53,703 nt of DNA, taken from UHGV virus genome UHGV-0137934. One strand, 5' to 3'. Below the pieces are notes generated by a model. The model was not told the DNA's origin and ran no database searches. It saw only the letters and a list, made by a program, of their open reading frames with translations. Of this stretch, positions 653 through 42,139 are shown in pieces. The first letter of the stretch is position 1; the number at the start of each line of letters is the position of its first letter. A program made the translations under genes and the position numbers. Origin of the DNA: a virus.

Positions 653-1918
653 TCATCTGACCTGAAGCAAATCACTGTATCTAGTGGTATAGCGTGGAGA
701 AAGCATTTCTCGCTGCATTTGCCATGCGGTCTGGATTCCCTGCCCTGCAAAATAGAGCGTCCCCCTGCCATCCTTCGCGTTGAGGTGGTCTAAAACTTCC
801 ATCAGTTTCTCACTGTTCTGCCGCGGTGCGTTGTCATCGAAGAGGTTAAGCTGCGCTACGCCCTGGCTGTAGAAATCACCCAACATTACTCCTGCTTTCT
901 GGTAGCGATGCCCGTCTCGCCATATCATGTCGAGGCATTTCGTCGCTGCGGTGATTATGTCCCTACTGTCCTGTGTTGGAGTCAACAGCTTTACTGATGC
1001 GCTGTTTCCGTAATATGGCTCGTTAAGAGCAAAGGGGCTGGTTTTAACGAACGCTGAGATAAAGCGGCAATACTGGTGCTCACCACGAAGTTTCTCCGCT
1101 GCGCGCGAGGCATAGCTGCATATTGCCTGCCTCATCTCATGATATTCCGTGATACGCCCACCGAAAGAGCGACTGCAGACTATTTCCTGTTTTACGGGCG
1201 CGAACTCCTCCAGACCGAGACAAGGCTCGCCACGCAGTTCCCGCACGGTTCGCTCCAGAACCACATTGAAATGCTTCCGGATAAAACGGATATCCGTATC
1301 TGCAAGTTTTAACACTGTGTCTATCCCCATAGACTCCAGTTTTTTACTGATACGGCGCCCAACGCCCCATACTTCATCAACCGGCAACAGCGCCATTAAC
1401 TTCCTCTGCCGTTCCATATTCGACAAATCAACTACGCCTCCAGTCTGCCGCTGCCACTGTTTCGCTGCGTGATTGGCCAGCTTCGCCAGAGTTTTTGTCT
1501 GGGCTATGCCAACACCAACCGTGAGGTGCGTCCGGCGCAGAACCGTCTCGCGAATTTCCCGGCCAAAGTCGGTAAGGTCGCGACAGTTACGAACTCCTGT
1601 CAGATCGCAAAATGCCTCATCGATACTGTAAATTTCGCATCGTGGAGAGAGCTCTTCAAGCGTAGTCATGACCCGGTTCGACATATCCGCATAGAGCTCA
1701 TAGTTGCTACTAAACGCGATAATGCCGTGCCGGCGGAACATTTCCTTTTGTTTAAAGTACGGCTCCCCCATTTTGACGAACGGCTTTGCCTCTGCGCTAC
1801 GTGCAATCACACAGCCATCGTTATTGGAAAGGACGACCACTGCACGCCCTTTCAAGTCAGGGCGAAATACGGTCTCGCACGATGCGTAAAATGAATTCAC
1901 ATCACACAGGGCGAACAT
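653..1918 (-). CDS. umuC: DNA polymerase V catalytic subunit UmuC (Y-family translesion polymerase)
   Basis: 421 aa ORF; matches remembered E. coli UmuC along full length (MFALCDVN.FYASCETVFRPDL ... SIDEAFCDLTGV ... RYTTR..DLL.V); start 3 nt after umuD stop. Confidence 0.95.
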   Translation of the reverse strand: MFALCDVNSFYASCETVFRPDLKGRAVVVLSNNDGCVIARSAEAKPFVKMGEPYFKQKEMFRRHGIIAFSSNYELYADMSNRVMTTLEELSPRCEIYSIDEAFCDLTGVRNCRDLTDFGREIRETVLRRTHLTVGVGIAQTKTLAKLANHAAKQWQRQTGGVVDLSNMERQRKLMALLPVDEVWGVGRRISKKLESMGIDTVLKLADTDIRFIRKHFNVVLERTVRELRGEPCLGLEEFAPVKQEIVCSRSFGGRITEYHEMRQAICSYASRAAEKLRGEHQYCRFISAFVKTSPFALNEPYYGNSASVKLLTPTQDSRDIITAATKCLDMIWRDGHRYQKAGVMLGDFYSQGVAQLNLFDDNAPRQNSEKLMEVLDHLNAKDGRGTLYFAGQGIQTAWQMQREMLSPRYTTRYSDLLQVR

Positions 1919-1919
1919 C

Positions 1920-2339
1920 TCAGCCAGCCGCTTTGATGATAAATGTCACAACACCGAATACATCCAGCGTGTCCTCGCTTCCCACGACGATTGGTGAATA
2001 TGCGGGATTCATTGGGTTAAGCTGAACGCGTGGATGTAGTTGCAACTTCTTAACGGTGAATTCCCCGTCCACAGCGGCAATCACGATATCACCATGAACT
2101 GCGGTTCTTGAGCTATCCACGACCAGAAGATCCCCCTCTCCGATCCCGGCGTCCTTCATGCTGTCGCCCGCAGCTTTGACAAAATATGTCGCGCTGGGGT
2201 GGTTAACTAGCAACTCGTTCAGGTCGATGCGTTGCTCAACATAATCCTGCGCAGGACTCGGGAAACCACACTGAACAAGGTCGCTGTACAACGGAATCAG
2301 GATGATTTTGCGTAACTCAACGGGCGTGTAGAACTGCAT
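1920..2339 (-). CDS. umuD: UmuD, LexA-like S24 self-cleaving accessory subunit of Pol V
   Basis: Matches remembered UmuD ([26 protein letters not shown] ... GDSM ... [19 protein letters not shown]); ORF track extends to a GTG at 2354 but ATG at 2339 fits UmuD length. Confidence 0.9.
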
Positions 2340-2359
2340 GATAGACTCGCTCACATAAA

Positions 2360-2379
2360 TACTGTTTATATATACAGTA
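2360..2379. promoter_or_regulatory. LexA (SOS) box upstream of umuDC
   Basis: TACTGTTTATATATACAGTA: perfect CTGT-N8-ACAG palindrome about 21 nt upstream of the umuD ATG. Confidence 0.85.
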
Positions 2380-2827: not shown

Positions 2828-3379
2828 TCATCCCGTTACTGGCAGATATTTATAGATAGTCTTCACCCCTACACCTATCACATCGGCTATCTGCTGGCGT
2901 GTAGCTCCGTTCTCCAGCATCCGGCGGCCTCGTTCCACAACTTCTTCGGTCATAACCCGGCGGCGGCCACCGATGCGCCCCTGCTCCCTTGCCGCTGCTA
3001 AACCGGCGCGGGTACGCTCGACGATCAACTCTCTTTCCATTTCCGCCAGTGCACTCATGACGTGGAAGAAAAAACGTCCTGCTGGCGTACTGGTATCGAT
3101 GCTGTCAGTCAGGCTTCGGAAATTCACCCCGCGCGCCTGCAGCTCTGATACCAGAGTGATCAGGTCACGCACGCTTCGCCCCAGCCGATCCAGTTTCCAG
3201 ACCACCAGCACATCACCCGGTCGCAGCCGCCGCAGCGCACGCTTTAGCCCTGGTCTCCGGGCATTCTTTCCGCTGGCCGTATCTTCGAAAACCAGCTCAC
3301 ATTCTGCGCGGATCAGCGCATTTTTCTGTAAATCGAGGTTTTGATCCCCGGTTGACACCCTGGCATAACCAATCAGCAT
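2828..3379 (-). CDS. serine recombinase, Hin/Gin/Pin/Cin-family DNA invertase
   Basis: 183 aa; N-terminal MLIGYARVSTGDQNLDLQ catalytic-serine motif, C-terminal HTH; adjacent to tail-fibre genes as in Mu Gin and P1 Cin. Confidence 0.9.
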   Translation of the reverse strand: MLIGYARVSTGDQNLDLQKNALIRAECELVFEDTASGKNARRPGLKRALRRLRPGDVLVVWKLDRLGRSVRDLITLVSELQARGVNFRSLTDSIDTSTPAGRFFFHVMSALAEMERELIVERTRAGLAAAREQGRIGGRRRVMTEEVVERGRRMLENGATRQQIADVIGVGVKTIYKYLPVTG

Positions 3380-22865: not shown

Positions 22866-24160
22866 TCCGGCGTCTCCTCTGATTTAATGCCAAGCCATTC
22901 CCGCAATGCGTTTTTGGCTGATTCACTGTCGCCGGACTTACCAAGCTGATCAATCGGCAGCAGGTTGGATTGAACGGTTAGTTGGTCAGCGCCAGGTTTT
23001 GGCTGAAGGTTTTCTTTTTGCCGTGCTTCATTGCGGGTCATCAGACCGTTCTGAGTCATCGTTGAGTAAAAAGCGGCACGGGCGGCGCTGTCGGCACGTA
23101 AGAGACCTTCGATGGAAAACTCCGCGAAGTACTTATTTCTTTCTCCCGGCGCCAGGAGACTTTTACGAATCGCCTGCTCAATACGGGTCAACCATGGACG
23201 AAGTGAAAACGTTAAAAAGCCAATCAGCATCTGTTCGACGCCACTTCCCCACATCGTCTGCCCCTGGGCGCTATGTCCAATCAACCCCGGCCATACTCTG
23301 AACCACCGACAAATCTCTTCGATATTGAATGCTCTGGACTGCAGCATCTGGGCGTCTTCCGGGTTGAGGTCAACAGGCTGAAACTTCATTCCGGCTTCAA
23401 GAACCATCATTTTCCCGGTATTCATGGAGCCAGAAAATTGTTCGACCATGCTTTCACGTACTTCATTGCGCTGCTCTTTTTTCAGGATTTGATCCATTGA
23501 GAGAACGCCGCTGGGCCGCATACCGTTTTTAAAAACTTTGGCGCTGGCTTCATCTGTTGCCATTGCCAGACCAAGTGTCTGCCGGGCATAACTGACAGGT
23601 GACAGGCCCATGACACCATTGGTGCTGAACGCACGGATGTGCATGATGTCCCGTTCATCAATGTTTCGGGATGTACCTGAAGGCCAGTCACGGTAGGTAT
23701 AAATAGGATCTCCGCTCTTGCTTAAATCAACCTTCATCCTTTCTGGCCTGAGCGGTACAAGCGAGGTAATACGCTTTCCGGTACGGTCGATTTCTGCGTA
23801 AGCATTCCCCCATAAAAGCAGACTGGCCATGATCATTTCCCAGAACTCCACAGCGGTCATGTCAGCATTTGGTTGATTATGGAGGAGCTCATAAAGCGGG
23901 TGATCATTTGCACTCTGGCGACCATCAGCCGTTTTTTCGTAAAAACCAACAGGTAATGTCGCGATGGTTTCGGATAACAGCCTGACGCATGACCACACTG
24001 CCGATAACTGCAGGGCTTTATCAACCGTAACGGATTTGCCTGCTGCGGACTGCCCACCTGCATAAGCAGCCCAGAATTCACCGTCGGTAAGGGAGATGGG
24101 TACGCCTAGCCACCGGCGAACGGCGCTTTTTATCCGGCCTGGCTTCTTCTCTTTATTCAT
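22841..24160 (-). CDS. portal protein
   Basis: 439 aa; canonical position after terminase. Confidence 0.9.
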   Translation of the reverse strand: MNKEKKPGRIKSAVRRWLGVPISLTDGEFWAAYAGGQSAAGKSVTVDKALQLSAVWSCVRLLSETIATLPVGFYEKTADGRQSANDHPLYELLHNQPNADMTAVEFWEMIMASLLLWGNAYAEIDRTGKRITSLVPLRPERMKVDLSKSGDPIYTYRDWPSGTSRNIDERDIMHIRAFSTNGVMGLSPVSYARQTLGLAMATDEASAKVFKNGMRPSGVLSMDQILKKEQRNEVRESMVEQFSGSMNTGKMMVLEAGMKFQPVDLNPEDAQMLQSRAFNIEEICRWFRVWPGLIGHSAQGQTMWGSGVEQMLIGFLTFSLRPWLTRIEQAIRKSLLAPGERNKYFAEFSIEGLLRADSAARAAFYSTMTQNGLMTRNEARQKENLQPKPGADQLTVQSNLLPIDQLGKSGDSESAKNALREWLGIKSEETPECTGKTQP

Positions 24161-29762: not shown

Positions 29763-30060
29763 CCACTTACCAGAAATAGAAAGATGTTAGACACATCTTC
29801 TGACCAATAAAATTATAAACCTAAGGGATTTCGACCAAATCATTTTCATAACTTCGCGTTAGCTAACAATTTCTTTGTCTGAACACGCTGCAAATTAAAA
29901 GGCTTAACTAGTTTGCATAGGCTGGAGTGTCGCGATTATTTACAGTGCTTTAGTAAATCGCTATGATTTACGGACTGGGGAGGCCTGAGACTCACCCCAG
30001 TGCCCTTAAAATCTGATTGATGCTTTTGAGGTCCGCTTCCCGAAGTGGACCTTTTTTTGC

Positions 30061-30088
30061 CCAAAGAAAAGGCCCGCCGAAGCGAGCC
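30061..30088 (-). terminator. intrinsic terminator (minus strand)
   Basis: Minus-strand hairpin GGCTCGC-TTCG-GCGGGCC followed by TTTTCTTT. Confidence 0.5.
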
Positions 30089-30119
30089 TGCCACTGCTGT
30101 TTCTTTGTTTGTATTGGTT

Positions 30120-30253
30120 GTGGTGCCGGGTGCCTCCCGGTGAGCTTTTGGGTGACCGACCATAGCTCGCGTTCATTAGCTTCTAACTCTGCTGACGTTA
30201 CCGTGCCACATTGTCTGGTCAGTTCCGCCCCGCCGCACAGGGGGATTCACCAC
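30120..30253. repeat. structured element A (134 nt) with conserved termini GTGGTGCCGGGTGCCTCCCGGTGAGC ... GGGGGATTCACCAC
   Basis: Paralogue of 31142-31253; termini can pair (GTGGTG/CACCAC); internal CCGGG...CCCGG hairpin; ERIC-like end motif. Confidence 0.35.
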
Positions 30254-30324
30254 GCACTTTAATTAACCAACCATTTAGACTCATGTCAATTATTTGTGTT
30301 CTATGCATCAACGTAGATAATCCG

Positions 30325-30971: not shown

Positions 30972-31141
30972 GAAAAAGTTGGCTTTCGAGGAGTAACGAT
31001 AAAGAAAGGTTCCTGATAGTCCGAGCTACCGATTTACCAGAAAAGCATTCCCTTTAATGTCGTTACTGTAATTAACCATAGTCTGCCAAAGAGGATGAGT
31101 AAACCTAACAGGATGTTCAGTTTACTTACTTGCGATTAGAT

Positions 31142-31253
31142 GTGGTGCCGGGTGCCTCCCGGTGAGCATGCCCCAACAGACATCACTCGCGTGGTATTCA
31201 CAGGGCTTTCGCTCTATTAGTTGGACGCCCCTCCGCATAGGGGGATTCACCAC
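31142..31253. repeat. structured element B (112 nt), paralogue of element A
   Basis: Identical 26-nt 5' end and near-identical 3' end to element A; variable middle. Confidence 0.35.
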
Positions 31254-31508
31254 AACAATAGATTAGCCATGCAGCATTCACATAGTCAATACCCTGTAGT
31301 TATAGGGTATATACGCATGCCGACAACTCTTAAATAAGTCAGAACACGATTAATTAATGCATATGAAATCATTACGGTATTAATGATAAAAACTCATACA
31401 AAACAATAAATTTAAAAGGAATTATCCGTTAGGATTTTTCCTACGCCAATCGCAAACTACGTTTTATAAAAACAAGAATGTCCATACTCTTTCCAGAGGT
31501 TAACTCAC

Positions 31509-31809: not shown

Positions 31810-32655
31810 TTATTTGCCGTTAGTGCCGAGTACACGGCTCAGGTTTTTCAGCAGGACAGTCGATGCCGTTTCCAGCATATCATCACCGGCATCGGTATTT
31901 GCGACCACCAGCGTTTTAGTGCAAGGAACCTTCACCTTTGAATCGCTCAGCCAGCCGGACTCGGTCACCGCCTTTTTCAGCTCGTACACCGGTTTCCCGT
32001 TTGGCAGTTTATCGTCGACGTGCCAGCCGTTCATGTCGATCATCGTCAGGCCGCTGCCTTCCTGATTAACCGCCTCCAGAAACTTATTCGACCGGTCCGG
32101 TGCTGATACCCAGAGGAAGGCGTCATACTCGCCAGTGGTGACTTTCGCCAGAGAGCGCACACCGCCTTTGGCATAGGTCTCGACTTTGGCGTAATCCTTT
32201 TCCAGCCCCTGAAGATATTGCCAGGATGCATACGATCCGCTGGTTGGATCTCCGACTGCGATTTTCACACCAGCCTTTAAATCTCCTTCATCGCTGACCT
32301 TGCCCCCCTTCTTCACTGCAACAAAAACGCATTCATCTGCCAGTTCGCCGATTATGTCCACCTTCTGCGCTTCGTTGCTATGCCGACTGCGCCAGAACTG
32401 GAAAGCATCAGCCTGGGTGAAACCGATCTGGGCAGTACCGCTGGCAACCTTGTCGAGATTGTCCAGAGAGCCTTTACTGGGGATCACCATCGAGCTATAG
32501 CCATACTCACTTAGTGCGCTGGCGAGATTAACGCCATACACCGCGTTATAAGTCAGGCCCTGCTGGCCAGTAGTGATGACGACATCCGCAGCTGCCGCAA
32601 CATTACTCAGGCACAGCGAAGCGACCGCGATGGCGGCCATGATTAACTTTTTCAT
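31810..32655 (-). CDS. secreted periplasmic solute-binding-protein-like protein (TAXI/PhnD-like superfamily)
   Basis: 281 aa from ATG at 32655 with AAGGAAAG RBS; signal peptide MKKLIMAAIAVASLCLSNVAAA; ORF track N-terminal extension is unlikely. Confidence 0.5.
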   Translation of the reverse strand: MKKLIMAAIAVASLCLSNVAAAADVVITTGQQGLTYNAVYGVNLASALSEYGYSSMVIPSKGSLDNLDKVASGTAQIGFTQADAFQFWRSRHSNEAQKVDIIGELADECVFVAVKKGGKVSDEGDLKAGVKIAVGDPTSGSYASWQYLQGLEKDYAKVETYAKGGVRSLAKVTTGEYDAFLWVSAPDRSNKFLEAVNQEGSGLTMIDMNGWHVDDKLPNGKPVYELKKAVTESGWLSDSKVKVPCTKTLVVANTDAGDDMLETASTVLLKNLSRVLGTNGK

Positions 32656-33791: not shown

Positions 33792-34841
33792 CTAACTCAG
33801 CAAACTGCGCATTTCACTGACCGTCTGTTCAAACCGCTCGGTTTCCAGTTCAACGCCGATTCCACTCCGCCCAAGCAGAGCCGCTTGCTTTAGTGTGGAA
33901 CCCGAACCAGCAAAGAAATCAGCTACGACATCCCCTGGCCGACTGCTTGCAGTAATGATCTGCTGGAGCATATCGGCAGGTTTTTCGCATGGGTGCTTAC
34001 CTGGATAAAACTGAACCGGCTTATGTGTCCAGACGTCGGTATATGGCACCGTGACCGACACGCTAAATGGGCGCCGTAACCGGTAAAGCTCCTGCTGAAG
34101 TTCAGAATACTTCCGGTTAAGTGATTGCCAGGTAGCGACAAGCTGGTGGTGAGGTTTTCCCAGTTCGTTGCGTGAGTGCTTATCCATGGCGATTTTTTGA
34201 AACAGAGCCTGCAACTTCAAATAATCGGCTTCATTCGGCAGTTGCCACTGGCTAAGGCCAAACCAGTGGGAAACCATATTTTTTTTACCCGTGGCTTCTG
34301 CAATCTGGGCCGACGTCACGCCAAGAGATTCCCGGGCATCCCGGAAGTAAGAAATTAAAGGCGTCATGATGTGTTGCTTTAACTCATTACACTTTGCGGC
34401 ATATCCATCGTCTTTGGGCCTGTATGGCCCCTGATAATGGTCGGCAAAAATGATACGCTCAGTGGCCGGGAAATAAGCGCGTAAGCTCTCCTTATTGCAG
34501 CCGTTCCATCGCCCTGATGGCTTAGCCCAGATGATATGGTTGAGCAGGTTAAACCGCTCTCTCACCAACAGCTCAATATCCGCTGCCAGGCGGTGCCCAC
34601 AGAACAGATACATGCTGCCGGCAGGTTTTAACACTCGCCAGAACTGTGCCAGACAGCTATCCAGCCAACGTAAATAGTCCTCGTCCCCCTGCCATTGGTT
34701 ATCCCAGCCGTTTGGCTTCACCTTAAAATAAGGCGGATCGGTAACAATAAGATCAATGGAGTTATCGGGTAGTGATGGGAGGTATTGCAGGCAATCAGCA
34801 TTGATTAATTCAACACTGGATATTTTTACAGTATTTTTCAT
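33792..34841 (-). CDS. DNA methyltransferase, N6-adenine/N4-cytosine type (DPPY motif)
   Basis: 349 aa; IVTDPPYF motif; C-terminal SAM-binding FFAGSGST. Confidence 0.8.
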   Translation of the reverse strand: MKNTVKISSVELINADCLQYLPSLPDNSIDLIVTDPPYFKVKPNGWDNQWQGDEDYLRWLDSCLAQFWRVLKPAGSMYLFCGHRLAADIELLVRERFNLLNHIIWAKPSGRWNGCNKESLRAYFPATERIIFADHYQGPYRPKDDGYAAKCNELKQHIMTPLISYFRDARESLGVTSAQIAEATGKKNMVSHWFGLSQWQLPNEADYLKLQALFQKIAMDKHSRNELGKPHHQLVATWQSLNRKYSELQQELYRLRRPFSVSVTVPYTDVWTHKPVQFYPGKHPCEKPADMLQQIITASSRPGDVVADFFAGSGSTLKQAALLGRSGIGVELETERFEQTVSEMRSLLS

Positions 34842-37297: not shown

Positions 37298-38148
37298 TGA
37301 ATGCCCCCAGAAAGCTCTTTATCGTGGGTATATTCCCCATTCCAGGATTGCTTCATAGGCAGTTGTCCCTTCAGATACTTGCGATAAAGCCAAACAGCCC
37401 CATCGCGTAGGAGGACGGGCTGGTATGTTGTGAAACTGGCGGCGGCGCTCGGTGAAACTTTTGTGCTCTTCTCGGTGAGATACTTATCCCTGACCTGAGA
37501 TCTGACACGCCATTGAGCGTGATTGCCGTTAGGATTGTCATCGTAAAGCCAGTTAGCGCTCTGTAGGAAGGCGCTGACTTTACTGACGTTGACTCCATTC
37601 AGACGTTTGCAGAACTGCACTGGGGATAAGCCGTCGGTAAACAGGTTTTCAAGATGATCGATATATTGAGCCAGCCGGTGACTTAAAGCCTCAATCCTCT
37701 GCCTGGCTTCATACTCATCAGCCCACGCCCTGGCAGCTAGCGCCGGGTTGGAAAATTCAGGATGCGTATGGCTTATCGCTGATTTTGCCTGCTGCTCGCA
37801 ACTAATGAAATAACGCCTTACCTGACGACCTTTTTCATTGCGCTCTACCATCGCTAACTCTTTACCCATATCGATGGTGACCATGTAATCCACTGCCGGG
37901 CGCCCGCCGAGTGGGTTTTCGCCAGAACTGGCGATAACTGTATAATCGATGTTTTCAGCAAAACCGTACTGGCTAATACGAGACTTTATCCAGTTGCTGA
38001 AGTCACGACCGACCCCAAGAAAATTATGCAGTCGCCTGGCGCTTACCAACGAAGCTCTCTGATCGCCGATTGTGCCCTGCATTACCGGAATTACCTGATG
38101 CAATTGATTATCGACAGGCGTAGCTACGCCCATAACATGGTTAGCCAT
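37294..38148 (-). CDS. antirepressor (AntA/KilAC-type)
   Basis: About 284 aa from ATG 38148 with GGAGA RBS; N-terminal Bro/AntA-like region. Confidence 0.6.
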   Translation of the reverse strand: MANHVMGVATPVDNQLHQVIPVMQGTIGDQRASLVSARRLHNFLGVGRDFSNWIKSRISQYGFAENIDYTVIASSGENPLGGRPAVDYMVTIDMGKELAMVERNEKGRQVRRYFISCEQQAKSAISHTHPEFSNPALAARAWADEYEARQRIEALSHRLAQYIDHLENLFTDGLSPVQFCKRLNGVNVSKVSAFLQSANWLYDDNPNGNHAQWRVRSQVRDKYLTEKSTKVSPSAAASFTTYQPVLLRDGAVWLYRKYLKGQLPMKQSWNGEYTHDKELSGGIQ

Positions 38149-38237
38149 ATTTATCTCCATACACTCTGAAGTGACGAAAGGGCCTGCACGCCCGTTTCGT
38201 TTGCACCATTCGACATTACTGCCAACTAGCAAATCTT

Positions 38238-38636
38238 TCAACCCACAGCTGTACATACATCCACCACTTTTTGATAGCAGACTATGGTGATTTCTACCCT
38301 GCCTCCTTTGACGATTTCACCCCATTCAATAGCCATACGCTTAACCTGGTTGTCGTCCTCCCAGATACCGGCATAAGTCAAAGCATCAAGAAGTGCCTTG
38401 TTGTAATTGTCCAGGTCACGCCGGCGATAGTCTGGCGGATAGAGAATAATTTCTACAGCTGCTGGCGCGGTAGATGGTTTTGGTATTGCACGCAGTTGCT
38501 CAATGATCGCTGAACGTACTGCATGTTTGAATTTACGGCCGGCTGCGCTGACAAGGTGTTTACCTTTTGCGGGCCCCTTATTTGGGGACCGCCAGTAGAT
38601 GTTCACGCTGGGTGGGAATGGAAGAATAAATTTCAT
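38238..38636 (-). CDS. rusA: RusA Holliday-junction resolvase
   Basis: 132 aa; LPFPPSVN ... DLDNYNKALLDALT motif. Confidence 0.85.
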   Translation of the reverse strand: MKFILPFPPSVNIYWRSPNKGPAKGKHLVSAAGRKFKHAVRSAIIEQLRAIPKPSTAPAAVEIILYPPDYRRRDLDNYNKALLDALTYAGIWEDDNQVKRMAIEWGEIVKGGRVEITIVCYQKVVDVCTAVG

Positions 38637-39109
38637 TCTGCCTCCAGCACTATCTTCAACTCAAACGGAACATCTCCTCCGCAATAGCAGAGCGGGCCAA
38701 GGTCAGACATAAGGCTCCACAGGGTCATTGACGTATAGCCATTTTCGTCTGTTACCGGGGGCGAAAAGTCCCCGAAGATCCCCGGGTGCTGGATTCGATT
38801 CTGCTCGTGTTGTTTTTCCAAATGTCTGAGGGAGACTTCATTGAGTTTCACTTTTACGATGCTGTTGAGATTGACCGATATTTCTCTGGCCAGCAGCGCA
38901 GGGGTGATACTGATACCGCGAGAAACCCCGCGGCTGATTGTGATAACACCCTTTTTCTCTAACGCCTTGAGGTGCGTTGCTGCTGCATTGGGGGACCGGC
39001 ACCCCAGCATGCCGGTCAGTTCGTAAGTTGTAGGCGGAAAACCATGTTTACGCTGATATTCGATCAGGAGGTCAAGGACCTCCTGCTGCCTTAAGGTCAA
39101 GGAAGTCAT
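38633..39109 (-). CDS. LexA-type winged-HTH DNA-binding domain protein lacking S24 peptidase domain
   Basis: About 158 aa; N-terminus LTLRQQEVLDLL ... GFPPTTYEL ... NAAATHLKALEKKGVI matches LexA DNA-binding domain; C-terminus unrelated to LexA. Confidence 0.6.
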   Translation of the reverse strand: MTSLTLRQQEVLDLLIEYQRKHGFPPTTYELTGMLGCRSPNAAATHLKALEKKGVITISRGVSRGISITPALLAREISVNLNSIVKVKLNEVSLRHLEKQHEQNRIQHPGIFGDFSPPVTDENGYTSMTLWSLMSDLGPLCYCGGDVPFELKIVLEAE

Positions 39110-41193
39110 GCTGCCTGCTCCTCTCTGTTCACGCACATTTCGGGTAAGTTAGCGCGTACCAGCGCTTCGGCGAACGGCGGCGGGACGGCATTGCCACAGC
39201 GCGCGACCTGCTTATCTTTCGCGTATTTCACGCCGCGGTAATCCTGGTCAATGATGTACCACTCGGGGAAGCCCTGCGCCCGGTAAAGTTCGTGTGGCTG
39301 CAGCATGCGCATGCCGATATCAACGATGCGGTAAGTCACTCCGTCGATTTCCACCAGCCCGGTGCATTCCTCTCCGCAGTATTCCTGCAGGAACGACAGT
39401 ACCTGCTGCGCTCGCTCTTCATCATAGTCCTCTGCCGCCAGAGTCGTTTTAACCTCCCCTACGTGCTGGCCACCGGCAGTGATAGTCGGCATCGGCTCGT
39501 CAGTAGGCTGGCCGTCACGGCAAGTACCGCGGAGCTTGACCAGATGAGACGTAACCATTGCGGCATCAGCCTTTGTCGTCATGGTTTGCAGTGGCTCGCT
39601 AACGTCACGTGGCCTGCTCTGCCCAGCGCGACCGCCGACACCAACAACCTGAGCAGTAACCAGCGCATGATGATCGACAGTAGTAACTGAGTGAGTAGGT
39701 TCGTCCAGGTCAATACCGGCGCCCTGGTAGTTCCCTCCGTAGTGTTTTGCCAGAAACGCACCAACTACGGCATGTTTCCCGCCACCAGCCACAACGGTGC
39801 CCAGCGGCTTATCCATACCTGGCACGCGAGGTGCCTGTCCTGGCCGTTCCCCGTATCCCGTTTGAATGAGCGTCGGCACAACCAGCTGCGATTTACCGCC
39901 ACCGCCCGCGGTGATTGTTGCGCTAGGCTCATCCGCACGGTGTCCGATGCTGGCGCCGAACTGCCGGGCGATAACCGGAGCGACGACACAGGCGCGCGAT
40001 TCTTTCAGGATGGTGTGAGCGGGTTTATCGAGCGGGCGTGGTTTAGCCTGGTACTCGCTGCCGCCATTGCCATCCAGGAACGGAGCCAGCTCTGCTTCAA
40101 CAATACCCATAGCGTGACCATTCCCGCCCGGGCGTTTTGCGGTACCGGCCGTCACCGTCGGCAACGGATCGGTGACTTCCTGACCGGTAGCTCCGGTTCG
40201 GAATTTTGTCAGATGAGGTACCGCAATTGCGTAGCCGTGGGTTTTCGTAATCGTCTGTAGCGGATCGTCCAGCGCCTGTCCCCGGAAACAGTCGTATTTA
40301 CCGCGTGTCGTTGTGTGATTGCACTTCACGATGAACGGCGAAGCGCTTTCGATAACAAAGCGCTGAATGCCGCGGGCAATCCGTTTTAGCGTATTCTCTG
40401 CCAGTGACTTTTTGCGACCGAAGATGCTCGGCGCGGGGATTGACCAGTCTATGCATTCCGCTGCTGTACGCCACGGCTCCAGCTGGCCCGCCAGCACGGC
40501 GGCAGACTTCGGATCCCCGTGCGTGGCTTCCGGCCAGACTATCGGTTTCCCGTCCCGGCGCATCACCATGAAGAACCGCTTACGGATGGTCGGCGCACCA
40601 TAATCGCAGGCGCGCAGCTCGCGAAAATCGACGACATAACCCAGCCCGGCAATTAAGCGCTTGGCCTGCTCGCTATCCGGTGAAAACTCCAGAAACTCGC
40701 AACACTCCACCAGTGCAGGATGATCTGCTGGAATACCGGTGGTAAGCATCCCGACAAATGCATTGAAAGTTTCACCGATGCGTGCCGGATCCGGTCGCAT
40801 TTCTGCCGCGAGTAACGGGCCCCACGTTTTAAACTCTTCGACGTTTTCCAGCATCATGACTCGCGGGCCAACATCCAGCGCCCAACGAATGACGATCCAT
40901 GCCAGCCCTCGAATAGTTTTCTCTACTGGTTTAGCACCTTTCGCTTTAGAAAAGTGACGACAGTCAGGCGAGAACCATGCCAGGCCGACAGGCTTGCCAC
41001 TGGTAGCGGCTAATGGGGATACATCAAACACACTTTCGCAATAGTGAAGCGTGTCGGGATGGTTAGTGCGGTGCATAGCAACGGCGTTAACATCGTGGTT
41101 AATCGCGATATCAACGCTACGCCCTATCGCCAGCTCAATACCTGTACTGGCACCACCGCCACCAGCAAAATTATCGACAATAATCTCACGCAT
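39106..41193 (-). CDS. DNA (cytosine-5) methyltransferase, long form with repeated target-recognition-like segments (probably multispecific)
   Basis: 695 aa; motif I FAGGGG, motif IV SPDCRHFSKAKG, motif VI ENV, C-terminal CGNAVPPP; central region with repeated P.xTITAGG-type segments. Confidence 0.8.
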   Translation of the reverse strand: MREIIVDNFAGGGGASTGIELAIGRSVDIAINHDVNAVAMHRTNHPDTLHYCESVFDVSPLAATSGKPVGLAWFSPDCRHFSKAKGAKPVEKTIRGLAWIVIRWALDVGPRVMMLENVEEFKTWGPLLAAEMRPDPARIGETFNAFVGMLTTGIPADHPALVECCEFLEFSPDSEQAKRLIAGLGYVVDFRELRACDYGAPTIRKRFFMVMRRDGKPIVWPEATHGDPKSAAVLAGQLEPWRTAAECIDWSIPAPSIFGRKKSLAENTLKRIARGIQRFVIESASPFIVKCNHTTTRGKYDCFRGQALDDPLQTITKTHGYAIAVPHLTKFRTGATGQEVTDPLPTVTAGTAKRPGGNGHAMGIVEAELAPFLDGNGGSEYQAKPRPLDKPAHTILKESRACVVAPVIARQFGASIGHRADEPSATITAGGGGKSQLVVPTLIQTGYGERPGQAPRVPGMDKPLGTVVAGGGKHAVVGAFLAKHYGGNYQGAGIDLDEPTHSVTTVDHHALVTAQVVGVGGRAGQSRPRDVSEPLQTMTTKADAAMVTSHLVKLRGTCRDGQPTDEPMPTITAGGQHVGEVKTTLAAEDYDEERAQQVLSFLQEYCGEECTGLVEIDGVTYRIVDIGMRMLQPHELYRAQGFPEWYIIDQDYRGVKYAKDKQVARCGNAVPPPFAEALVRANLPEMCVNREEQAA

Positions 41194-42139
41194 GAGCGGT
41201 CCCCCTCATGCTGCCGACCAGCCCACCAGCAACGGTGATGATTTCGCTGGTGGGCACGCGCTCCAGCCACAACTGGTTAATGTGGGCCTTCAGCTTGTTC
41301 TGCTGGGAGAACTCCAGATCCTCTGCGCCTTGTACCTGTCCAAAGACGAGTCCAACTTCCAGTGGCCAGATCCGGGATTCAGGCTCAGCCAATGATGCAA
41401 CAGCATCGGGGATGATCACTTCAGGAGACTGAACTGGCGAAACTGGTGACAGGAATTTTCCTGCAGCAAACTCAGCCAGCGCCATACTTGCGCGCCCTTT
41501 TGCTTCCAGCTCAACGCGATCGATATAGCTAAAATGTTCACCGCGCCAGGTCTTATCAAATACCGCAATGGCCCCGGCAAAGAAGGCGCTGGTGGGCTTC
41601 TGCTTTTCGTCGGCCGGCACAAACCACGTTGGGAGATCGAATCCAATACGACCACGAATAAACATGATGTGATCGGCATATTCCGGCCACCATGTTTCAC
41701 TTGTTGCTGACTTCACGAGGTAAATGTAACGACCACCCTTTTCACGCTGCTCGGCGGTATAGTTCATAATATGAGTCATGCCAGTGATGGCTTGTTTTTC
41801 ATGGTACTGCGAACGGCTGTACGGCGGATTAGCAAAGGCCGCTCCTCCGAGTTCTACCAAACGACCAGACCAGTCCTGCGTCAGCGCATTATCTTCAGCG
41901 GTATACCATGCCGGACATTTTGTATTGCTGTCGTCTGCAAACAGGTCCAGTACCAGCGGGCCAAACATAGCGTTAACGCCCCAGAATAGCAGATCAGGGG
42001 TACGCCATTGATCCCCGACTTCTTTTAAATAATGCGCACTACGCTGGCGCTGTTCCTCAAGTGCCAGGCAATAAGGGCTGACTGTTTTTGTTAAAGTTTG
42101 CTCTTCTGCGGTCATAGCTTCTTGTACTTCCTGACTCAT
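41186..42139 (-). CDS. phage Dam-type N6-adenine DNA methyltransferase with C-terminal extension
   Basis: 317 aa; DLFADDSNTKCPAWYT and FANPPYS motifs. Confidence 0.7.
   Translation of the reverse strand: MSQEVQEAMTAEEQTLTKTVSPYCLALEEQRQRSAHYLKEVGDQWRTPDLLFWGVNAMFGPLVLDLFADDSNTKCPAWYTAEDNALTQDWSGRLVELGGAAFANPPYSRSQYHEKQAITGMTHIMNYTAEQREKGGRYIYLVKSATSETWWPEYADHIMFIRGRIGFDLPTWFVPADEKQKPTSAFFAGAIAVFDKTWRGEHFSYIDRVELEAKGRASMALAEFAAGKFLSPVSPVQSPEVIIPDAVASLAEPESRIWPLEVGLVFGQVQGAEDLEFSQQNKLKAHINQLWLERVPTSEIITVAGGLVGSMRGTAHA

What the first reader, a model, noticed from the sequence alone, without database searches (positions are those of the whole stretch)
38633..39109. LexA DNA-binding-domain-only protein in the early-right operon
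The N-terminal roughly 70 aa closely follow the LexA winged-HTH (LTLRQQEVLDLLIEY ... GFPPTTYEL ... SPNAAATHLKALEKKGVI), but the C-terminal roughly 85 aa show no S24 Ala-Gly/Ser-Lys peptidase features. A non-cleavable LexA-box binder made by the phage could rewire the host SOS response or phage induction. A perfect LexA box sits at the nearby umuDC operon (2360-2379).
Basis: partly seen in the sequence, partly recalled or inferred. Interest (0 to 1): 0.5.

Follow-up and report, generated by a model that had tools for sequence, protein, structure and literature searches.

The report
Phage LexA-like protein without protease
A Klebsiella prophage carries a real early gene that joins a copy of the DNA-binding head of the bacterial SOS repressor LexA to an unrelated, uncharacterised phage domain, so the protein cannot be switched off by DNA damage; what DNA it binds is still unknown.

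Summary

The gene sits between a C5 methylase and rusA in the delayed-early operon of a lambdoid Klebsiella prophage, with ATGA overlaps on both sides. Both domains are under purifying selection.

LexA-head-only proteins are common in lambdoid phages (SfV, mEp460, Stx phages; at least 582 IMG/VR contigs) but uncharacterised there. The only studied analogue, GIL01 gp6, binds a non-SOS palindrome and activates transcription.

"Non-cleavable" is supported; "LexA-box binder" is not shown. The base-contact residue E45 is Thr and the backbone contact R28 is Thr.

Two strong SOS boxes lie in the window (umuD, and the 5' end of a late DNA methylase). The methylase box also occurs in phages lacking this gene. 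Public annotation as "repressor and protease LexA" is wrong.

The parts
38633..39109 (-). Gene for the 158-aa LexA-head/unknown-domain protein (CDS 38636-39109 plus stop codon 38633-38635)
   Evidence: ORF list and translation. The identical protein is in NCBI as MBX8656934.1 from Klebsiella michiganensis. dN/dS is 0.05-0.13 for the DNA-binding domain and 0.15-0.37 for the C-terminal part.
38906..39109 (-). Residues 1-68: LexA-type winged helix-turn-helix DNA-binding domain. Recognition helix is S39-P-N41-A42-A-A44-T45-H46; wing is R60-G-V-S-R64-G65-I.
38882..38905 (-). Residues 69-76: linker with lower model confidence; no Ala-Gly cleavage site
   Evidence: pLDDT dips to 60-67 over residues 61-80 and pTM is 0.46, which fits two independently placed domains. 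Sequence.
38636..38881 (-). Residues ~77-158: small alpha/beta domain of an unannotated phage family (consensus FNxNxxVKVKLT..G...L..QH.EL...P...F.xP..DE.GY...QLW.LM..FG.....G...PFET.I.I)
39106..39109 (-). ATGA overlap: stop codon of the upstream C5 cytosine methylase (39106-41193) overlaps the start codon of this gene
   Evidence: Sequence. Suggests translational coupling (inference).
38633..38636 (-). ATGA overlap: stop codon of this gene overlaps the rusA start codon (rusA 38238-38636)
   Evidence: Sequence. RusA Pfam hit.
39118..39123 (-). Shine-Dalgarno-like GAGGAG, 8 nt upstream of the ATG at 39109
   Evidence: Read from the sequence. Homologues start at the same Met/Val, which supports ATG 39109 rather than GTG 39136.
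2360..2379 (.). Candidate target only: canonical SOS box TACTGTTTATATATACAGTA just upstream of umuD (1920-2354)
   Evidence: Exact CTGT-N8-ACAG match. Scores 28.6 bits on a LexA-box matrix, above all training sites. Binding by the phage protein is untested.
34814..34833 (.). Candidate target only: SOS box (minus strand TACTGTAAAAATATCCAGTG) at +8..+27 of the late-region N6/N4 DNA methylase ORF (33792-34841)
   Evidence: 22.6 bits. The same box at the same position occurs in 80 of 80 methylase homologues in viral contigs and in mEp460 and Kp4866-6. It also occurs in 24 of 70 loci that lack a LexA-head gene upstream, so it does not depend on this protein.

Best explanation
The gene encodes a RecA-insensitive member of the LexA family of DNA-binding proteins.

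Shown. A LexA winged-helix head, most similar to gammaproteobacterial LexA, is joined by a short linker to an unrelated ~80-aa phage domain. That domain occupies the place of the S24 autopeptidase and dimerisation domain. The gene is a conserved member of the delayed-early (nin-region) operon of lambdoid Klebsiella prophages, with overlapping start and stop codons on both sides. It would therefore be made after infection or after induction, not in the lysogen.

Inferred. The C-terminal domain supplies the dimerisation that a LexA head needs to bind a palindromic operator tightly. The dimer occupies SOS-box-like palindromes (xTGT-N8-ACAx). Candidates are the host SOS boxes and the two phage-borne boxes at umuD and at the late methylase. 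Because the protein cannot be cleaved, it would keep or restore repression of such promoters while host LexA is being destroyed. This could hold down host SOS functions, SOS-triggered bacteriocins or rival prophages during phage growth. The exact operator sequence may differ from CTGT because Glu45 is Thr.
For: Domain identity and boundaries.

No S24 domain and no Ala-Gly.

Readout residues: S39, N41 and A42 are kept, and wing residues R64 and G65 are invariant across the phage family. Residue roles come from PMC3091678 and PMC11442139.

Real, selected gene: dN/dS 0.05-0.37. There are 170 members in its 90% cluster on many Klebsiella contigs and at least 582 relatives in IMG/VR.

Conserved slot: Dam, (C5-MTase), this gene, RusA, KilA-N/AntA, DUF968, Q. 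This order holds although immunity and Q modules differ between loci. That argues for a target not tied to one phage's immunity region.

Dimerisation role of the C-terminal partner: the same head is found with three alternative C-terminal partners. These are a ~35-aa tail, this domain, or a whole RusA. RusA is a homodimer, which I state from general knowledge. The domain also occurs as tandem duplicates within one chain, P0067 and P0123.

Candidate sites and induction logic: strong canonical SOS boxes are present in the prophage. The prophage repressor is S24-type, so induction coincides with LexA loss.

Precedent: GIL01 gp7 shows that a phage can enforce SOS repression after damage and hold down a co-resident prophage (PMC9700832).
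Against: E45 is a base-contact residue whose E45K change is reported to abolish specific recA-box binding. Here it is Thr. R28 is also Thr and E44 is Ala.

Positions 44-45 differ between phage clades. This is not expected if all clades read the invariant host box.

GIL01 gp6 shows that a truncated phage LexA can evolve a different operator and act as an activator.

The methylase SOS box is present in 24 of 70 loci without the gene. 10 of 12 'ND'-type loci have the gene but no strong box downstream. There is therefore no genomic coupling to a phage-borne SOS box.

Dimerisation by the C-terminal domain is not demonstrated. Its frequent occurrence as a stand-alone protein in virulent phages suggests it may have a function of its own.

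No DNA-binding data exist.
Confidence: 0.4

Rival explanations
1. A gp6-like phage-internal regulator. The captured LexA head has diverged to read a phage-specific palindrome rather than the SOS box. It switches a phage promoter on or off as a timing device during lytic growth, with no direct action on the host SOS regulon.
For: GIL01 gp6 is a truncated LexA homologue that binds GaCACAnnTGTGaC and activates the late promoter (PMC6182141). Here E45 is Thr and R28 is Thr, and mutating readout residues is reported to change specificity. Positions 44-45 are diversified between clades, as for a specificity determinant.
Against: No over-represented or repeated palindrome was found in the prophage. 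Palindromes conserved across the 30 long-form loci were concentrated in the replication-gene region and coding sequence, and none suggested an operator. The flanking immunity and Q modules vary while the protein stays the same, and late genes have their own Q antiterminator. The head is much closer to host LexA (56%) than to gp6 (29%).
Confidence: 0.3
2. The C-terminal domain is the active part. It is a small phage effector that binds a host or phage protein. The LexA head only tethers it to DNA, or the protein acts mainly through protein-protein contacts rather than as a classical repressor.
For: The domain is mostly found alone as a small protein: 79 of the 148 listed hits are 80-99 aa. It occurs in very different phages, including virulent Bacillus, Pseudomonas and T5-like phages. 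It is fused to other unrelated segments, some of which look like zinc ribbons by eye from CxxC pairs. In Pantoea phage PdC23 it is a separate gene a few genes upstream of rusA.
Against: No partner or activity can be inferred. No Pfam model, no PDB fold match and no informative neighbours were found. The head is under the stronger purifying selection. Short-tail and RusA-fused forms of the head exist without this domain, and no stand-alone copy of the domain lies near the short forms.
Confidence: 0.15
3. It is what the public records call it: a bona fide 'SOS-response repressor and protease LexA', meaning a cleavable LexA paralogue.
For: Source annotations of the identical protein and its cluster.
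Against: No S24 domain at E<=1. The TIGR00498 score of 61.8 is below the 110.95 cut-off and the match covers residues 1-70 only. There is no Ala-Gly site. The C-terminal fold is unrelated.
Confidence: 0.01
4. A decaying or accidental fusion with no function.
For: Frameshifted or truncated copies exist (P0040, P0043, P0046; L016, L040, L041, L061).
Against: Both halves are under purifying selection. The same architecture is conserved in homologues whose C-terminal domains are only 44-49% identical to this one, P0065, P0066 and P0068. The gene is tightly coupled into the operon.
Confidence: 0.03

Closest known systems
Cellular LexA (E. coli/Klebsiella type; TIGR00498, MEROPS S24)
   Different: There is no S24 domain, no Ser-Lys dyad region and no Ala-Gly site, so RecA-stimulated cleavage is not expected. 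E44 is Ala, E45 is Thr and R28 is Thr. The C-terminus is an unrelated small domain. The gene is phage-encoded and expressed from a lytic operon.
GIL01 gp6 (Bacillus tectivirus; truncated LexA homologue, activator of late promoter P3)
   Same: A phage-encoded early-gene product built from a LexA DNA-binding domain without the protease. It is the only experimentally studied case of this kind that I found (PMC6182141).
   Different: Only 29% identical over 65 residues. gp6 is 66 aa with no C-terminal domain. The phage type and host phylum differ. Each protein resembles its own host lineage's LexA: gp6 is 44% identical to B. thuringiensis LexA, and this protein is 56% identical to E. coli LexA. 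I infer independent captures. gp6's operator and activator role cannot be transferred to this protein.
Short LexA-head proteins of lambdoid phages (SfV orf42, SfII, mEp460_046, cdtI, Stx2 phages; PHROG 362 'transcriptional repressor')
   Same: The head is 64% identical. The genomic slot is the same, between Dam and RusA and upstream of KilA-N/AntA, DUF968 and Q. Their function is also untested and they are only catalogued, for example as pham 237 in Stx phages (PMC8136144).
   Different: They are 103-113 aa with a ~35-aa tail (..ALVxGDExAREHAIxFLExRG..) instead of the 80-aa domain. Recognition-helix positions 44-45 are VE, AD, VD, ND or SD rather than AT or AS.
Non-cleavable LexA mutants (e.g. 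S119A) and the LexA N-terminal fragment
   Same: This is a functional analogy: a LexA head that DNA damage cannot remove. S119A is cited as non-cleavable in bioRxiv 10.1101/2020.07.14.201889.
   Different: Those proteins keep LexA's own dimerisation domain and its wild-type recognition helix. The natural N-terminal fragment is short-lived, which I state from general knowledge and did not test here.
GIL01 gp7
   Same: A phage factor that strengthens SOS repression after DNA damage and holds down a co-resident prophage (PMC9700832). This is the kind of benefit proposed here.
   Different: gp7 works by binding host LexA and has no LexA-like domain of its own.
Stand-alone members of the C-terminal domain family (PHROG 29443/5792; Bacillus phage Grass U5PUJ8; Pantoea phage PdC23 pdc_056; Vibrio phage 230E39-1 P0070)
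   Same: 36-43% identical over ~80 residues in tblastn. The BFVD model of Grass U5PUJ8 superposes with TM 0.89.
   Different: They lack the LexA head. Two of them (pdc_056 and P0070) are nevertheless annotated as an SOS regulatory protein or LexA, apparently by transfer from fusion proteins like this one.

Membership tests
LexA repressor (TIGR00498 / S24 autopeptidase family) | N-terminal LexA-type winged helix-turn-helix domain | tested here: met
LexA repressor (TIGR00498 / S24 autopeptidase family) | C-terminal S24 peptidase/dimerisation domain with Ser-Lys dyad | tested here: not met
LexA repressor (TIGR00498 / S24 autopeptidase family) | Ala-Gly self-cleavage site in the hinge | tested here: not met
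   The 158-aa sequence contains no Ala-Gly dipeptide.
LexA repressor (TIGR00498 / S24 autopeptidase family) | Full-length equivalog score | tested here: not met
   61.8 bits against a cut-off of 110.95; the match covers residues 1-70 of a 203-position model.
LexA repressor (TIGR00498 / S24 autopeptidase family) | Specific binding to CTGT-N8-ACAG through S39, N41, A42 and E45 | tested here: inconclusive
   S39, N41 and A42 are kept; E45 is Thr and R28 is Thr. Binding itself cannot be tested with these tools.
Truncated phage LexA homologues (GIL01 gp6 type) | Phage-encoded protein consisting of a LexA DNA-binding domain without the protease | tested here: met
   This protein has an extra C-terminal domain that gp6 lacks.
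Truncated phage LexA homologues (GIL01 gp6 type) | Sequence relatedness to gp6 beyond the general LexA fold | tested here: not met
   29% identity, pairwise E 2e-06. This is lower than the identity to E. coli LexA (56%).
Truncated phage LexA homologues (GIL01 gp6 type) | Binds a non-SOS palindrome at a late promoter and activates it | not testable with these tools
   No candidate operator was found. Late control here has a Q antiterminator.
Lambdoid short LexA-head proteins (PHROG 362; SfV orf42 / mEp460_046) | Homologous head in the Dam-X-RusA slot of the nin region | tested here: met
   phrog_362 E 4.8e-32 over residues 1-71. 64% identity and the same synteny.
Lambdoid short LexA-head proteins (PHROG 362; SfV orf42 / mEp460_046) | Short (~35 aa) C-terminal tail, total length ~105-113 aa | tested here: not met
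   The protein is 158 aa and the tail is replaced by the 80-aa domain.
Unnamed phage domain (PHROG 29443 / 5792) | Sequence and fold match over the ~80-aa domain | tested here: met
   phrog_29443 E 6.6e-67. 521 homologues. BFVD TM 0.89 to stand-alone members.
EF-hand calcium-binding motif | 12-residue loop with acidic ligands at positions 1, 3, 5 and 12 | tested here: not met

The most novel reading that the evidence does not exclude
Lambdoid phages of enterobacteria carry a damage-proof LexA surrogate. It is a LexA head dimerised by a previously undescribed fold. The phage makes it early in lytic growth, and it re-silences SOS-box promoters while host LexA is being destroyed. This would shut down host SOS functions, SOS-triggered bacteriocin lysis and LexA-controlled rival prophages. 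The 80-aa C-terminal module would then be a new, portable dimerisation domain used widely by phages.
Probability: 0.25. Interest if true: 0.7.

Novelty: new variant of a known kind. Interest (0 to 1): 0.45.

Why it matters
Phage proteins built from a LexA head without the protease turn out to be common in lambdoid phages of Klebsiella, E. coli, Shigella and Salmonella, including Stx phages. I found no functional study of them.

If they bind SOS boxes, they are a direct viral override of the bacterial DNA-damage response. That would bear on prophage induction hierarchies, toxin phage biology and SOS-driven mutagenesis under antibiotics. If they bind something else, they are a second, independent case, after GIL01 gp6, of a host master repressor's head being re-tooled by a phage.

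There are also two practical points. This family is mis-annotated as "repressor and protease LexA". That label has spread to stand-alone copies of an unrelated domain that has no Pfam model and no solved structural relative.

Tried and rejected
1. Operator search within the prophage. I enumerated perfect inverted repeats and tested palindromic half-site enrichment for arms of 4-6 nt and gaps of 2-10 nt against shuffles. Nothing convincing emerged beyond the cI operators (GTACAT type, near 44.8 and 45.6 kb), an ori-like repeat in the O gene and codon-driven CTGG/CCAG pairs.

2. Operator search across loci. Palindromes conserved across the 30 long-form loci were concentrated in the replication-gene region and coding sequence, and none suggested an operator.

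3. A weak LexA-like site at the 3' end of rusA (38247-38266). It scores 12-14.6 bits in several loci. It lies in coding sequence and only one half-site is good in each locus, so I did not accept it.

4. Coupling between the gene and the methylase SOS box. The box is in 80 of 80 methylase homologues whether or not the gene is present, and many short-form loci have the gene without a box. I rejected this as evidence of a dedicated target.

6. Searches that could not run or found nothing. The search for related loci with the domain alignment failed because no stretch was conserved enough. The genome-contig scan found no relative. The afdb50 library was unavailable. Megablast found no match in E. 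coli complete genomes.

7. The LexA-DNA structure paper could not be read. Contact residues are therefore taken from secondary sources.

8. The LexA-box matrix was built from 20 E. coli sites recalled from memory. Individual sites may contain errors, so scores are indicative only.

Full report
WHAT IS THERE

The finding's coordinates are exact for a minus-strand gene. The CDS is 38636-39109 and the stop codon is 38633-38635. A GTG 27 nt upstream would extend the ORF. However, homologues begin at the Met/Val that corresponds to ATG 39109, and a GAGGAG lies 8 nt upstream of it.

The start codon overlaps the stop codon of a 695-aa C5 cytosine methylase as ATGA at 39106-39109. The stop codon overlaps the start codon of rusA as ATGA at 38633-38636. 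The gene is therefore packed into an operon.

The surrounding genes make a lambdoid prophage.
- On the minus strand: a cII-like gene, an O-like replication gene, Dam, the C5 methylase, this gene, RusA, an AntA-domain protein, DUF968 and a Q antiterminator.
- Downstream of Q: late and lysis genes and structural genes.
- On the other strand: an S24-type cI-like repressor, recombination genes and a lambda-type integrase.

A simple scan found no promoter-like site on the gene's strand within the early operon. It found only weak terminator-like hits, none between the gene and the cII end.

The identical protein is in NCBI from Klebsiella michiganensis, accession MBX8656934.1. Klebsiella phage Kp4866-6 encodes a 97.5% identical copy.

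THE TWO DOMAINS

Residues 1-68 are a LexA winged helix.
- Pfam LexA_DNA_bind: E 1e-19 over the whole model.
- E. coli LexA DNA-binding domain: E 1.6e-16, with 38 of 68 residues identical.

Nothing resembling the S24 peptidase follows.
- There is no PF00717 hit at E<=1. UmuD and the cI-like repressor in the same window do hit PF00717 strongly.
- The NCBIfam lexA equivalog aligns to residues 1-70 only and falls below its cut-off.
- The protein contains no Ala-Gly dipeptide.

Residues ~77-158 are a separate module.
- A phmmer search of 1.84 billion representatives with residues 72-158 found 521 relatives. Of the 148 listed, 79 are proteins of 80-99 aa.
- Some relatives are tandem duplicates and some are fused to unrelated segments.
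- With 84 homologues as the alignment, AF2 gives a very confident model, pLDDT 95.
- BFVD returned only uncharacterised phage proteins from Bacillus, Pseudomonas, Agrobacterium, Pantoea and T5-like phages.
- Neither Pfam nor PHROGs gives it a function.
- A weak profile hit to a calmodulin EF-hand (E 0.0013) lacks the acidic ligands at loop positions 1 and 12. I do not read it as a calcium site.

Both halves of the gene are under purifying selection. dN/dS is 0.05-0.13 for the head and 0.15-0.37 for the rest. The same two-domain architecture recurs in homologues whose C-terminal domains are only 44-49% identical (P0065, P0066, P0068). This is a stable fusion, not an accident.

HOW COMMON IT IS, AND WHAT IS KNOWN

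LexA-head-only proteins are frequent in lambdoid phages.
- tblastn found them in 92 phage records. These include SfV (orf42), SfII, mEp460 (gene 046, 'LexA DNA binding domain protein'), cdtI and many Stx2 phages.
- In the annotated records listed, the gene lies next to or overlaps the Dam methylase. In mEp460 and in three Klebsiella loci it sits directly upstream of RusA.
- IMG/VR holds at least 582 relatives.
- Most are 103-113 aa with a short tail. The 155-158-aa form with the extra domain is the Klebsiella/Raoultella variant.
- A third form has the head fused directly to RusA.
- Stand-alone copies of the C-terminal domain are not found next to the short forms. The tails are therefore alternatives.

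I found no functional work on the enterobacterial proteins. A Stx-phage genomics paper only lists a pfam01726 'LexA family' pham (PMC8136144).

The one studied analogue is GIL01 gp6. It is a 66-aa truncated LexA homologue that binds GaCACAnnTGTGaC over the -35 region of the late promoter and activates it (PMC6182141). gp6 is only 29% identical to the head here. Each protein resembles its own host lineage's LexA, so I infer independent captures.

DOES IT BIND SOS BOXES?

This is the crux and cannot be settled here.

In favour:
- The head is close to gammaproteobacterial LexA.
- S39, N41, A42, H46 and the wing R64-G65 are invariant in the phage family.
- The protein keeps its slot while immunity and Q modules change around it. 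This fits a target common to all hosts.

Against:
- Secondary sources state that readout of CTGT is mediated mainly by S39, N41, A42 and E45, and that mutating these residues alters specificity (PMC11442139).
- N41 and E45 contact bases and R28 contacts the backbone. E45K is reported to abolish specific recA-box binding (bioRxiv 10.1101/2020.07.14.201889).
- Here E45 is Thr, R28 is Thr and E44 is Ala.
- Across phage clades, positions 44-45 read AT/AS, AD/VD/ND/SD or VE. That pattern is more typical of a specificity determinant than of a residue pinned by an invariant host site.

I scanned the window with a LexA-box matrix built from E. coli sites recalled from memory. Two sites scored well above any score seen in shuffles. 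One is the umuD box at 2360-2379 (28.6 bits). The other is at 34814-34833 (22.6 bits), lying at +8..+27 of a late-region N6/N4 DNA methylase ORF.

The methylase box is notable in its own right.
- It is present at the same position in all 80 methylase homologues retrieved from viral contigs, and in mEp460 and Kp4866-6.
- The codon overlapping the second half-site reads TCC, AAC or CAC in different loci, while the CAG half-site is kept. This suggests selection on the DNA site.
- However, 24 of 70 such loci have no LexA-head gene upstream. 10 of 12 'ND'-type loci have the gene but no strong box downstream.

The box therefore looks like a host-LexA site. It is a candidate for the phage protein, not a dedicated target. 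De novo searches for another operator found nothing.

MOST LIKELY MECHANISM

Shown:
- A LexA-type DNA-binding head.
- No protease and no cleavage site.
- A different C-terminal domain.
- Delayed-early operon membership.
- Purifying selection.

Inferred:
- The protein is made after infection or induction. The prophage repressor is S24-type, so induction coincides with LexA cleavage.
- The C-terminal domain provides dimerisation. Supporting hints are that the head is found with interchangeable partners, including RusA, which is a known homodimer from general knowledge. The domain also occurs as tandem duplicates in single chains.
- The dimer binds SOS-box-like palindromes and represses them in a RecA-insensitive way.

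I give this 0.4. A phage enforcing SOS repression after damage has precedent in GIL01 gp7, which holds down a co-resident prophage (PMC9700832).

The main rival, at 0.3, is a gp6-like phage-internal regulator with its own operator. A second rival, at 0.15, is that the C-terminal domain is an effector in its own right and the head only a tether. The database label 'repressor and protease LexA' is refuted by the domain tests.

VERDICT

This is a new variant of a known kind, the truncated phage LexA homologue. It is distinguished by an unannotated C-terminal domain with no solved structural relative. It belongs to a large, unstudied family in medically relevant lambdoid phages. Interest is moderate. 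The protein is easy to test, and either outcome would be informative: SOS override, or a second independent re-tooling of the LexA head.

Noticed in passing
window 34814-34833 (also L009 41021-41040; L008 32126-32145; loci L090-L169): A strong LexA box sits inside the first codons (+8..+27) of the late-region N6/N4 DNA methylase (33792-34841, minus strand). It is present in 80 of 80 homologues from viral contigs. The codon overlapping the second half-site reads TCC, AAC or CAC in different loci while the CAG half-site is kept, which suggests selection on the DNA site itself. Its role is unknown. It could give SOS control of a moron methylase, or act as a LexA roadblock ahead of the lysis genes.
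   Followed up: partly
window 653-2354 and 2828-3379: umuDC with a perfect SOS box lies next to a DNA invertase and tail-fibre genes at the left end of the prophage. A similar umuDC-plus-Hin arrangement is annotated in Klebsiella phage ST846-OXA48phi9.2, so umuDC may be phage cargo. Prophage ends (att sites) were not located. Kp4866-6 shows no umuD-type box.
   Followed up: partly
window 30059-30282 and 31099-31282 (minus strand): Two copies of the sRNA family STnc100 (Rfam RF02076, 97 and 70 bits) lie about 1 kb apart in the late-operon region between the methylase and the lysis genes. They were also seen as direct repeats D1 and D3.
   Followed up: no
L006 4001-4249 (Pantoea phage PdC23 pdc_056); L007 3977-4285 (Vibrio phage 230E39-1 P0070); NCBI MBX8656934.1 and its cluster: Annotation error that has spread. 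The window protein is named 'SOS-response repressor and protease LexA' although it has no protease. Stand-alone copies of the C-terminal domain, which have no LexA head at all, are annotated as 'SOS regulatory protein LexA' or 'putative SOS-response repressor and protease LexA'.
   Followed up: yes
L043 from 10001, L044 from 527, L048 from 10001; protein P0051: In some viral contigs the LexA head is fused in frame to a complete RusA Holliday-junction resolvase, giving 202-208 aa. The P0051 cluster has 37 member sequences. This could be a functional fusion in which the RusA dimer replaces the tail, or a tolerated loss of the stop codon.
   Followed up: partly
window ~38146-38256 and ~38176-38196: The AntA-domain ORF listed from 38256 probably starts at ATG 38148 (MANHVMG, preceded by GGAG), because this start is conserved in related loci. 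If so, the ~90-nt rusA-antA spacer holds a conserved hairpin, GGGCGTGCAGGCCC followed by TTTCGTC.
   Followed up: no
L009 (mEp460) 23255-23302 and 31970-31989: Phage mEp460 carries a short LexA-head gene and has four strong SOS boxes in 44.5 kb. Two are upstream of a DinI-like gene and one is at the late methylase. One near-perfect box (TACTGTTTTTACATACAGTA) lies inside the coding region of the S24-type prophage repressor gene.
   Followed up: no
window 38636-38881 (C-terminal domain); alignment A2: The domain profile gives a weak hit to the helix-loop-helix of calmodulin EF-hands (E 0.0013; shared D-x-[DN]-G-Y...L..M..LG). The usual calcium ligands at loop positions 1 and 12 are missing. This may be chance or a degenerate EF-hand-like element.
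   Followed up: partly
window 41186-42139, 39106-41193, 33792-34841: The prophage encodes three DNA methyltransferases: Dam-type, a 695-aa C5 enzyme whose best Pfam stretch covers only residues 6-122, and an N6/N4 type. Protein P0053 is a hybrid of a Dam N-terminus and the C-terminal domain of the LexA-like protein, which points to deletions across this block.
   Followed up: no
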